A stretch of 64,000 bases of DNA, from assembly GCF_050920415.1 (NCBI RefSeq), contig NZ_CP169309.1; one strand, given 5' to 3'. Each line of letters begins with the position of its first letter. Positions within the stretch are counted from its first letter, which is position 1. This document shows positions 43,374 through 45,881 of this stretch, in pieces. Position numbers and translations under genes: made by a program. The DNA comes from Escherichia coli (GTDB lineage Bacteria > Pseudomonadota > Gammaproteobacteria > Enterobacterales > Enterobacteriaceae). The notes below the pieces were generated by a model. That model searched no databases, was not told the DNA's origin, and worked only from the letters and a program-made list of their open reading frames with translations.

Positions 43374-43436
43374 CGCATTAAAAATGCCTGGTAAGCACCC
43401 GCTTACCGGGCTACGCATCAAGAACAGGTAATCACC

Positions 43437-44060
43437 GTGCTCAACAAACTCTCCTCTCTGCTGAAAGACGCAGGAATTTCGCTTACCGATCACCAGAAAA
43501 ACCAGCTAATTGCCTACGTGAATATGCTGCATAAATGGAATAAAGCGTACAACCTGACTTCGGTCCGCGATCCTAATGAGATGCTGGTACGCCATATTCT
43601 CGATAGCATTGTGGTGGCACCGTATCTGCAAGGTGATCGGTTTATCGATGTCGGCACCGGACCAGGACTGCCTGGCATTCCACTCTCTATCGTGCGTCCT
43701 GAAGCCCATTTCACGTTGTTGGATAGCCTTGGTAAACGCGTGCGTTTCCTTCGTCAGGTGCAACATGAGCTTAAACTGGAGAATATTGAGCCAGTACAGA
43801 GCAGGGTAGAAGAGTTTCCTTCTGAGCCGCCATTTGATGGCGTAATTAGCCGCGCCTTTGCCTCTTTGAACGATATGGTGAGCTGGTGCCACCATCTTCC
43901 TGGTGAGCAAGGTCGTTTCTACGCGCTGAAAGGCCAAATACCGGAAGATGAAATCGCTTTGTTGCCCGAAGAATATCAGGTCGAATCAGTGGTTAAACTT
44001 CACGTTCCGGCCCTGGATGGCGAACGTCATCTGGTGGTGATTAAAGCAAATAAAATTTAA
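43437..44060 (+). CDS. rsmG: 16S rRNA m7G527 methyltransferase RsmG (GidB)
   Basis: 207-aa ORF (GTG start) [57 protein letters not shown]... Confidence 0.93.
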
Positions 44061-44147
44061 TTTTTATCAAAAAAAACATAAAAAAATGACCGGTTAGACT
44101 GTTAACAACAACCAGGTTTTCTACTGATATAACTGGTTACATTTAAC

Positions 44148-44191
44148 GCCACGTTCACTCTTTTGCATCAACGAGCTAACGTGGCTTTTTT
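44148..44191 (+). terminator. Putative rsmG terminator
   Basis: gccacgtt...aacgtggc 8-bp stem (long loop) followed by TTTTTT. Confidence 0.4.
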
Positions 44192-44557
44192 GGGTAAGCA
44201 GAAAATAAGTCAGCAGTGAAAATATCAGGCTGCTAAAAATCGGCGCTAAGAACCATAATCATCTGTTAAAACATTATTAAAAATGTCAATGGGTGGTTTT
44301 TGTTGTGTAAATGTCACTTATTAAAAGAGTGTCTGTTTTTGGACTTAAATATCATAAACTTGCAATGGCATCATTTGCCAAGTAAATAAATATGCTGTGC
44401 GCGAACATGCTCAATATGTGATCTGAAGCACGCTTTATCGCCAGTGTTTACGCGTTATTTACAGTTTTTCATGATCGAACAGCGTTAGCAGAAAAGTCGC
44501 AATTGTATGCACTGGAAAAATATTTAAACATTTATTCACCTTTTGGCTACTTATTGT

Positions 44558-44585
44558 TTGAAATCACGGGGGCGCACCGTATAAT
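44558..44585 (+). promoter_or_regulatory. atp operon promoter (-35 TTGAAA, -10 TATAAT, 16-bp spacer)
   Basis: tTTGAAAtcacgggggcgcaccgTATAATttgacc about 90 nt upstream of atpI. Confidence 0.7.
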
Positions 44586-44676
44586 TTGACCGCTTTTTGA
44601 TGCTTGACTCTAAGCCTTAAAGAAAGTTTTATACGACACGCGGCATACCTCGAAGGGAGCAGGAGTGAAAAACGTG

Positions 44677-45881
<1,205 letters not shown>

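What the first reader, a model, noticed from the sequence alone, without database searches (positions are those of the whole stretch)
44061..44676. Long AT-rich non-coding interval between rsmG and atpI
About 600 bp with no convincing ORF and a strong sigma70 promoter near its 3' end (TTGAAA, 16 bp, TATAAT). The size and AT-richness suggest additional regulatory content such as further promoters or nucleoid-protein sites.
Basis: seen in the sequence. Interest (0 to 1): 0.2.

Follow-up and report, generated by a model that had tools for sequence, protein, structure and literature searches.

The report
Regulatory spacer upstream of atp operon
The 616-bp AT-rich gap between rsmG and atpI in E. 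coli holds no hidden gene; it is the control region of the ATP synthase operon, already known to bind CRP, ArcA and H-NS, and its length is held unusually constant across enteric bacteria.

Summary
Window 44061-44676 is the 616-bp rsmG-atpI intergenic region of E. coli. It has 36.7% GC against 50.9% for the window. It contains no annotated or conserved ORF and no Rfam hit. TTGAAA-16-TATAAT lies at 44558-44585.

- a high-affinity CRP site at 44417-44432
- an ArcA box at 44263-44280
- a published H-NS-bound "promoter island" covering about 43962-44401
- the rsmG intrinsic terminator, a hairpin at 44149-44184 with a T-run at 44186-44191

The promoter is, from my own knowledge, the classic atp/unc P1.

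I did not find the following described in the searchable library. In 61 Enterobacteriaceae species (60 plus this window) the region is 612-621 bp long. A 314-bp core has no indels at all, although the spacers between invariant 6-12-mers are nearly randomised. In the same loci the mnmG-rsmG gap ranges 53-118 bp and the oriC-containing gap 369-383 bp. No conserved ORF or RNA structure explains this.

The best reading is a phase-constrained array of protein-binding sites upstream of atp P1. This is an ordinary, largely known regulatory region with one unexplained twist.

The parts
44061..44191 (+). rsmG 3' untranslated region ending in an intrinsic terminator (hairpin arms 44149-44158 and 44176-44184, T-run 44186-44191)
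   Evidence: RNA fold of 44058-44195: -29.6 kcal/mol, z = -3.06, with a terminal hairpin followed by UUUUUU. Inverted repeat I1. An abundant short RNA ends at K-12 3922927/8 (minus strand), which maps to window 44189/90 inside the U-run (PMC8082180 supplement). The hairpin is lineage-specific: only 26 of 61 species have any hairpin plus T-tail within about 270 nt after the rsmG stop, 13 of them at window 44160-44189 where the E. coli terminator lies. There is no consensus structure.
44143..44180 (-). Four direct repeats of TT(A/T)AC with an exact 11-bp period (starts 44143, 44154, 44165, 44176; GTTAA-like on the minus strand). Possible extra response-regulator (ArcA/OmpR-type) sites.
   Evidence: Family consensus TTTAAC..tT.AC..tt.tC..ttaAC. 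The distance 44143->44177 is 34 bp in all 66 species. A relaxed GTTAA-N6-GTTAA pattern is conserved on the minus strand at 44143 (56/61) and 44165 (42/61). The identity of the binding protein is inferred only.
44218..44240 (.). Near-invariant block GAAAATATCAG-N3-GCTAAAAAT; binding factor unknown
   Evidence: At least 90% conserved in 61 Enterobacteriaceae, with internal spacing 17 bp in all 66 species. No RNA pairing on either strand.
44263..44280 (+). ArcA box CTGTTAAAACATTATTAA (two direct repeats 11 bp apart)
   Evidence: Park et al. 2013 Tables S1, S3 and S4. The box range 3920857-3920877 (U00096.2) maps exactly to window 44263-44283; ChIP-seq and ChIP-chip peaks map to 44314 and 44345. 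TGTTAA is invariant across the family. atpI is absent from their tables of ArcA-regulated operons.
44283..44301 (.). Invariant ATGTCAAT (44283-44290) plus GGTTTTT (44295-44301). On the minus strand it reads TTGACA, which with TAACAT forms a promoter-like pair in about 75% of species but TAACAG in E. coli.
   Evidence: ATGTCAAT is identical in 61 of 61 Enterobacteriaceae and 4 of 6 Erwiniaceae. The minus-strand sigma70 score has median 9.7 across species but 3.4-4.9 in this window.
44347..44354 (.). Second AAATATCA block, a repeat of the core of 44220-44227
   Evidence: The TCA is invariant and neighbouring bases are conserved at 60-90%.
44417..44432 (.). CRP site TGTGATCTGAAGCACG, centre 44424.5, which is -167.5 from the predicted P1 start
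   Evidence: The same 16-mer lies under a CRP ChIP-seq peak in ETEC. Genomic SELEX target, with atpI reporter activity lower in a crp mutant. Footprint-seq Kd 2.2 nM. Matches the consensus with at most 2 mismatches in 61 of 61 species. Sits exactly 141 bp upstream of the P1 -35 hexamer in every Enterobacteriaceae and Erwiniaceae locus checked.
44515..44557 (+). Near-invariant AT-rich block upstream of P1 (-77 to -35), in the position of an UP element; contains the DnaA-box-like TTATTCACC at 44532-44540
   Evidence: 94-96% column identity. The DnaA-like word is conserved in 56 of 61 species. The functional assignment is inferred.
44558..44592 (+). atp P1 promoter: -35 TTGAAA 44558-44563, 16-bp spacer, -10 TATAAT 44580-44585, predicted start G at about 44592
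   Evidence: PWM score 12.4 in all 61 species. A start 73 nt before the old GTG start at 44665 is my own recollection of the 1980s unc promoter papers, not checked here.
44593..44676 (+). Highly conserved 85-nt atpI leader. It contains a second promoter-like pair (TTGACT 44604-44609, 17-bp spacer, TTTTAT 44627-44632), the Shine-Dalgarno GGAG at 44662-44665, and a segment (44633-44646) predicted to pair with the atpI start region (44677-44688).
   Evidence: 88-97% identity. P2-like score 7.7 in all species. The consensus fold has 23 pairs but none with compensatory changes; the single-sequence fold is no better than shuffles, z = -0.20.

Best explanation
The interval is a composite non-coding control region, not a hidden gene. 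Its first ~130 bp are the 3' UTR and intrinsic terminator of rsmG. The last ~160 bp are the strong sigma70 promoter P1 of the atpIBEFHAGDC operon, with an AT-rich upstream block and a conserved leader. The ~320 bp in between is an upstream regulatory region carrying an ArcA box, a high-affinity CRP site, an H-NS-bound AT-rich tract and several invariant short motifs whose binding proteins are unknown. Shown: the sequence elements, their conservation, and (from published work) binding of CRP, ArcA and H-NS and a drop in atpI reporter activity without CRP. Inferred: these proteins assemble on one face-of-helix-dependent scaffold that tunes P1 from a distance. In this model CRP at -167.5 bends the DNA to bring upstream DNA and proteins back toward RNA polymerase, while ArcA-P and H-NS on the -230 to -380 tract damp expression. 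That dependence on helical phase would explain why selection has forbidden indels for the whole history of the family.
For: Identity and annotation. P1. CRP. ArcA. H-NS and promoter island. OmpR bound at atpI in Salmonella. Terminator. No conserved ORF. No RNA family or consensus structure in the upstream part. Spacing constraint: the gap is 612-621 bp in 60 other Enterobacteriaceae species. Every anchor-to-anchor distance from 44351 to 44665 is identical in 60 of 60 species. The spacers are near random (mean pairwise identity 0.32-0.40 against 0.25-0.27 expected). In the same loci the mnmG-rsmG gap ranges 53-118 bp and the oriC-containing mioC-mnmG gap 369-383 bp. In Erwiniaceae the ArcA-box module is displaced from the CRP site by 11-12 bp, about one helical turn, while CRP-to-P1 stays at 141 bp.
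Against: CRP at -167.5 is far outside the class I and class II positions, and no conserved sigma70 promoter lies next to it, so direct activation of P1 is not explained. ArcA peaks are low (3.2 and 3.3), and atpI is absent from the ArcA-dependent expression tables. Insertions are tolerated: the gap is a standard 'neutral' landing site for 7-kb constructs, and one natural strain carries an IS91-family element at about 44385. A test for 10-11-bp A-tract periodicity gave no clear helical signal. The proteins that read the invariant motifs at 44218-44240 and 44283-44301 are not identified.
Confidence: 0.72

Rival explanations
1. It is a 'promoter island': a horizontally acquired AT-rich tract crowded with overlapping promoter-like sites.
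For: The region is listed as island 3920739_440 atpI/rsmG, H-NS-bound in two datasets and flagged by one foreign-gene predictor. Short RNAs from the gap are reported in secreted RNA and tagged 'PI'.
Against: The tract is syntenic and alignable, with invariant motifs, across 61 Enterobacteriaceae and 6 Erwiniaceae species, so it is not a recent acquisition. A plain consensus scan finds 1 promoter-like site against 2.2 expected from shuffles. Across species only P1, the P2-like site and one partly conserved minus-strand site score consistently. The reported short RNA ends in the U-run of the rsmG terminator, which explains it without an island promoter.
Confidence: 0.12
2. The upstream part encodes an unannotated small RNA or small protein whose length constraint explains the fixed spacing.
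For: Strong block conservation with no indels. An ATG at 44283 is conserved in 60 of 60 species. A minus-strand TTGACA/TAACAT promoter-like pair is present in about 75% of species.
Against: No ORF of 10 aa or more keeps its start, frame and stop: the best is intact in 12 of 60 species. There is no third-base conservation pattern. No NCBIfam hit and no Rfam hit at E<=10. RNAalifold predicts zero conserved pairs on either strand of 44195-44420 and in 44058-44200. The minus-strand -10 is spoiled in E. coli (TAACAG).
Confidence: 0.06
3. It is a cis-acting chromosome element linked to its position 2.9 kb from oriC (replication control, origin-region organisation or a topological barrier), rather than a regulator of atp.
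For: Its length is at least as constrained as that of the oriC-containing gap in the same genomes. The pattern of invariant short motifs at fixed distances with random spacers is, from my own knowledge, the pattern described for oriC. ArcA, which also binds oriC, binds here. A DnaA-box-like 9-mer is conserved at 44532-44540. A reporter placed here was expressed far less than one at the other origin-flanking site.
Against: Only one weak DnaA-like box is present, and no conserved IHF consensus. Large insertions and an IS are viable. The identified binders, CRP and ArcA, are ordinary regulators of energy metabolism, which suits ATP synthase. No paper in the searchable library links the gap to replication.
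Confidence: 0.08

Closest known systems
E. coli atp (unc) operon promoter region, P1 upstream of atpI/uncI
   Same: Same locus and same hexamers: TTGAAA-16-TATAAT, with a predicted start about 85 nt before the atpI ATG.
   Different: None for P1 itself. Classical work (my recollection) dealt with the proximal promoter, not the ~450 bp further upstream.
Multi-factor upstream regulatory regions of strong growth-related promoters (for example rrnB P1 with its UP element and phased upstream Fis sites)
   Same: A strong near-consensus promoter, an AT-rich block at -40 to -77, and further conserved protein sites upstream with fixed spacing.
   Different: The conserved array reaches to about -530, far beyond the roughly -150 of rrn promoters. 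The documented binders are CRP, ArcA and H-NS rather than Fis. CRP sits at -167.5, which is not a contact position.
Promoter islands (Shavkunov/Panyukov/Ozoline)
   Same: This gap is on their published list and is H-NS-bound.
   Different: Most islands accompany horizontally acquired genes. This one lies between core genes and is conserved across two families. It shows no excess of simple consensus promoters.
oriC of Enterobacteriaceae (conserved boxes separated by spacers of fixed length but variable sequence)
   Same: The same evolutionary signature, in the same loci and with comparable or tighter length constraint.
   Different: No array of DnaA boxes and no AT-rich 13-mer unwinding element or other origin feature was identified. 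There is no evidence of any replication role.

Membership tests
sigma70 promoter (atp P1) | -35 and -10 hexamers close to consensus with a 16-18 bp spacer | tested here: met
   TTGAAA-16-TATAAT, 11 of 12 matches; PWM score 12.4 in 61 of 61 species.
sigma70 promoter (atp P1) | Experimentally mapped transcription start | not testable with these tools
   The classical unc promoter papers and TSS datasets were not retrievable. The start at about 44592 is predicted and matches my recollection of '73 nt upstream of uncI'.
CRP binding site | 22-bp site with TGTGA-N6-TCACA core | tested here: met
   TGTGATCTGAAGCACG at 44417-44432; at most 2 core mismatches in 61 of 61 species.
CRP binding site | CRP occupancy in vivo and in vitro | not testable with these tools
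   Taken from published work: ChIP-seq, genomic SELEX plus reporter, Footprint-seq Kd 2.2 nM.
Class I / class II CRP-dependent promoter | Site centred near -41.5, -61.5, -72.5 or -92.5 relative to a promoter | tested here: not met
   The centre is -167.5 from P1. No conserved sigma70-like element lies 40-95 bp downstream of the site on either strand.
ArcA box | Two or more TGTTAA-like direct repeats 11 bp apart | tested here: met
   CTGTTAAAACATTATTAA at 44263-44280; pattern conserved in 56 of 61 species. It is the box listed in Park et al. Tables S3 and S4.
ArcA regulon member | ArcA-dependent change in expression of the downstream operon | tested here: inconclusive
   atpI is in the binding tables S1, S3 and S4 but was not found in Tables S5-S8 of the same study, which was done under anaerobic glucose fermentation only.
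Promoter island | Abnormally high density of promoter-like start points | tested here: inconclusive
   It is published as an island by the PlatProm algorithm. The simple consensus scan here finds 1 site against 2.2 expected. The two methods differ.
Intrinsic terminator (rsmG) | GC-containing hairpin followed directly by a U-run, with an RNA 3' end there | tested here: met
   Hairpin 44149-44184 plus UUUUUU at 44186-44191. A published RNA end maps to 44189/90. The generic scanner missed it because the loop is longer than 8 nt.
Structured non-coding RNA | Match to a known family, or conserved base pairs with covariation | tested here: not met
   Rfam gave 0 hits at E<=10. RNAalifold gave 0 pairs for 44058-44200 and for 44195-44420 on both strands. 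The leader has 23 predicted pairs but 0 compensatory changes.
Small protein gene | ORF with conserved start, frame and stop across species | tested here: not met
   The best ORF is intact in 12 of 60 species; no family hits.
Origin-like / DnaA-titrating element | Cluster of DnaA boxes (TTWTNCACA) with an IHF or Fis site | tested here: not met
   One conserved 8-of-9 match at 44532-44540 and no conserved IHF consensus. The patterns were recalled from memory, so this is a weak test.

The most novel reading that the evidence does not exclude
The ~500 bp upstream of atp P1 is a single phase-locked nucleoprotein scaffold, comparable in evolutionary rigidity to oriC. It is read by CRP, ArcA, H-NS and at least two unidentified factors that recognise GAAAATATCAG-N3-GCTAAAAAT and ATGTCAAT. 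Its exact geometry, not just its individual sites, would set ATP synthase expression, or serve an origin-proximal chromosomal function, across Enterobacteriaceae and Erwiniaceae.
Probability: 0.25. Interest if true: 0.55.

Novelty: already known. Interest (0 to 1): 0.3.

Why it matters
ATP synthase is one of the most heavily expressed operons, yet its transcriptional control is usually described as a single constitutive, growth-rate-linked promoter. Three things suggest an unstudied long-range control module: a high-affinity CRP site at -167.5, an ArcA box at about -320, and invariant motifs with no known reader, all held at fixed distances since before Enterobacteriaceae and Erwiniaceae split. 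There is also a practical point. The atpI-gidB gap is widely used as a 'neutral' landing pad for synthetic constructs. Insertions there split a strongly constrained region, and a reporter placed there was expressed much less than one at the other origin-flanking site. Such strains may therefore not be neutral.

Tried and rejected
1. Hidden protein gene. All ORFs of 10 aa or more were tested for conserved start, frame and stop in 60 species; none was conserved. NCBIfam was negative.
2. Known RNA family. Rfam at E<=10 gave nothing.
3. Conserved RNA structure. RNAalifold gave zero pairs for the rsmG 3' region and for both strands of 44195-44420. The leader fold has no covariation, and the single-sequence fold is no better than shuffles.
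4. Helical A-tract phasing. A periodogram of AA/TT across species gave its best periods at 8-9.5 bp. The test is confounded by shared ancestry, so it is not informative.
5. Motif guesses from recalled consensus sequences (IHF, FNR, Fis, H-NS, OmpR, CpxR, PhoB, Lrp, DnaA). Only CRP, ArcA-like repeats, one DnaA-like word and low-specificity Fis-like matches are conserved. I treat these as leads only. Resemblances of the AATATCA blocks to the H-NS nucleation motif, and of TTAGCAGNCTGA to the SlyA consensus, were seen by eye and not tested.
6. Published TSS tables. Thomason 2015 is not held. The Kim 2012 supplements contain no entry for this locus. The classical unc promoter papers were not found. 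The OmpR supplement has no atpI row.
7. Internal repeats. Only the terminator inverted repeat stands out.
8. Terminator conservation. The E. coli hairpin is not conserved in most genera.
9. Not attempted.

Full report
**Identity of the locus.** The window matches E. coli strain 2013C-4282 at 100% and K-12 at 96.8% over 44000-44720. 5421 of 5426 complete E. coli genomes carry the stretch essentially full length. The gene order is mioC - oriC - mnmG - rsmG - gap - atpI - atpB. rsmG stops at 44058-44060 and the RefSeq atpI ATG is at 44677, so the finding's coordinates (44061-44676, 616 bp) are exact. K-12 has the same 616-bp gap with nothing annotated in it.

**The observation.**
- GC is 36.7% against 50.9% for the window, which puts it in the lowest 0.8% of 616-bp windows.
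- From my own knowledge this is the classical atp/unc P1. Its start was reported 73 nt before the formerly assumed GTG start, which is 44665 here, giving about 44592. I could not retrieve those papers.
- Against K-12 the gap differs at 21 positions (3.4%). All lie between 44076 and 44483, and none lies in the last 193 bp.

**Is anything encoded?**
- No ORF of 10 aa or more keeps start, frame and stop in 60 other Enterobacteriaceae; the best is intact in 12 of 60. The longest ORFs hit no NCBIfam model.
- Rfam finds nothing at E<=10.
- RNAalifold on 20 genera predicts no conserved pairs in the rsmG-proximal 140 nt or in 44195-44420 on either strand.

**What is already published.** I mapped K-12 coordinates onto the window. 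The mapping is validated by the ArcA box range, which lands exactly on its sequence.
- CRP. The 16-mer TGTGATCTGAAGCACG (44417-44432) lies under a CRP ChIP-seq peak in ETEC (PMC4287617). atpI is a genomic-SELEX CRP target, with lower reporter activity in a crp mutant (PMC3105977). The site has an in vitro Kd of about 2.2 nM (PMC12871828).
[quoted passage not shown] - H-NS. The gap is one of 78 'promoter islands' (about 43962-44401) and is H-NS-bound in two datasets (PMC3661553).
- OmpR was found at atpI in Salmonella (PMC3945435).
- An abundant short RNA 'from the atpI/rsmG intergenic space' ends at window 44189/90 (PMC8082180 supplement). That is inside the U-run of a hairpin-plus-T-run, with arms 44149-58 and 44176-84 and T-run 44186-91. 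I read this as the rsmG intrinsic terminator.
- The gap is also a popular 'neutral' integration site (PMC2847246). A reporter placed there was expressed about four-fold less than one at the other origin-flanking site.

**What the comparison across species adds.** A genome scan with RsmG returned 80 loci, 66 of which include atpI.
- In 60 Enterobacteriaceae species the gap is 612-621 bp; in 6 Erwiniaceae it is 711-838 bp.
- The alignment shows invariant 6-12-mers separated by spacers that are almost randomised. Mean pairwise identity is 0.32-0.40 against 0.25-0.27 expected by composition.
- Anchor-to-anchor distances are nonetheless fixed. From 44351 to 44665 (314 bp) there is no length change in any of 60 species. 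Elsewhere changes are 1-2 bp, in homopolymer runs.
- In the same loci the mnmG-rsmG gap ranges 53-118 bp. The oriC-containing mioC-mnmG gap, from my own knowledge the textbook case of fixed spacing, ranges 369-383 bp.
- The extra length in Erwiniaceae sits right after rsmG. The rest of the architecture is retained. CRP-to-P1 stays at exactly 141 bp, and the TGTTAA/ATGTCAAT module is displaced from CRP by 11-12 bp, about one helical turn.

**Conserved elements** (coordinates verified):
- TTTTTATCAAAAAAA, 44061-75
- Four TT(A/T)AC repeats with an 11-bp period, 44143-80
- GAAAATATCAG-N3-GCTAAAAAT, 44218-40
- The ArcA box, followed by ATGTCAAT (44283-90) and GGTTTTT
- AAATATCA, 44347-54
- The CRP site
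- A 160-bp nearly invariant block comprising an AT-rich upstream region, P1 and the 85-nt leader

Across species only three sigma70-like pairs score consistently:
- P1
- A leader-internal TTGACT-17-TTTTAT at 44604-32
- A minus-strand TTGACA/TAACAT pair overlapping the ArcA box, which is spoiled (TAACAG) in E. coli

The E. coli terminator hairpin is not conserved in most genera.

**Interpretation.** The interval is a composite control region. It comprises the rsmG 3' UTR and terminator, an upstream regulatory tract with documented CRP, ArcA and H-NS binding, and P1 with its leader. The spacing constraint is a fact; its cause is inferred. The simplest reading is a helical-phase-dependent assembly of several proteins acting on P1 from a distance.

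Weak points of that reading:
- CRP at -167.5 is not a contact position, and no conserved promoter lies next to it.
- ArcA occupancy is low, and no expression effect was reported.
- Insertions are viable.
- An A-tract periodicity test was uninformative.
- The readers of two invariant blocks are unknown, and consensus matching from memory gave only leads.

**Rivals.**
- The promoter-island/HGT reading conflicts with the deep synteny and conservation, and with the lack of excess consensus promoters.
- A hidden RNA or small protein is not supported.
- An origin-linked chromosomal element cannot be excluded, given the oriC-like evolutionary signature and the location 2.9 kb from oriC. It lacks any defining origin or DnaA feature.

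**Verdict.** The finding is real and its interpretation is supported, but nearly all of it is already in the literature as genome-wide data. What I did not find described in the searchable library is the family-wide rigidity of the spacing. That raises a modest, testable question about long-range control of the atp promoter.

Noticed in passing
L083 (E. coli UMNF18, NZ_AGTD01000001.1), insertion point about window 44385: One of 5424 matching E. coli genomes has an IS91-family transposase plus a hypothetical gene (about 2 kb) inserted in the gap. It separates the ArcA/H-NS tract from the CRP site and P1.
   Followed up: partly
window 44633-44646 and 44677-44688: The invariant leader segment ACGACACGCGGCAT is predicted to pair with the atpI start region AUGUCUGUGUCG, which would occlude the start codon. 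The pairs are conserved but show no compensatory changes, so the structure is unproven.
   Followed up: partly
window 44351-44381, minus strand: An Escherichia-specific strong promoter-like pair, TTGGCA-19-TATGAT (score 10.1 here, median 1.4 in other species), points back toward rsmG. It could give an antisense transcript.
   Followed up: no
L070, L073, L075, L082 and other Erwiniaceae loci, directly after the rsmG stop: Erwiniaceae carry an extra 100-220 bp immediately downstream of rsmG that Enterobacteriaceae lack. Its content was not examined.
   Followed up: no
window 56402-62719: Downstream of glmS (ends 56096) lies a low-GC chaperone-usher fimbrial operon: fimbrial subunit, PapD-like chaperone, usher and a second fimbrial protein. 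The usher gene is split by an insertion carrying an rve-type integrase ORF on the opposite strand (59486-60391). From my own knowledge this may be the lpf2-type island found between glmS and pstS.
   Followed up: partly
window 44665 versus 44677: the ORF listing extends atpI to a GTG at 44665 (130 aa). That GTG overlaps the Shine-Dalgarno GGAG at 44662-65, and the bases between it and the ATG vary in length (7-13 nt) across species. This supports the RefSeq ATG at 44677.
   Followed up: yes
loci L003-L082, mnmG-rsmG gap (window 43374-43436): The short gap between mnmG and rsmG is bimodal across Enterobacteriaceae, at about 53-80 bp or about 94-118 bp. This suggests an inserted or deleted element of about 40 bp in some lineages.
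   Followed up: no
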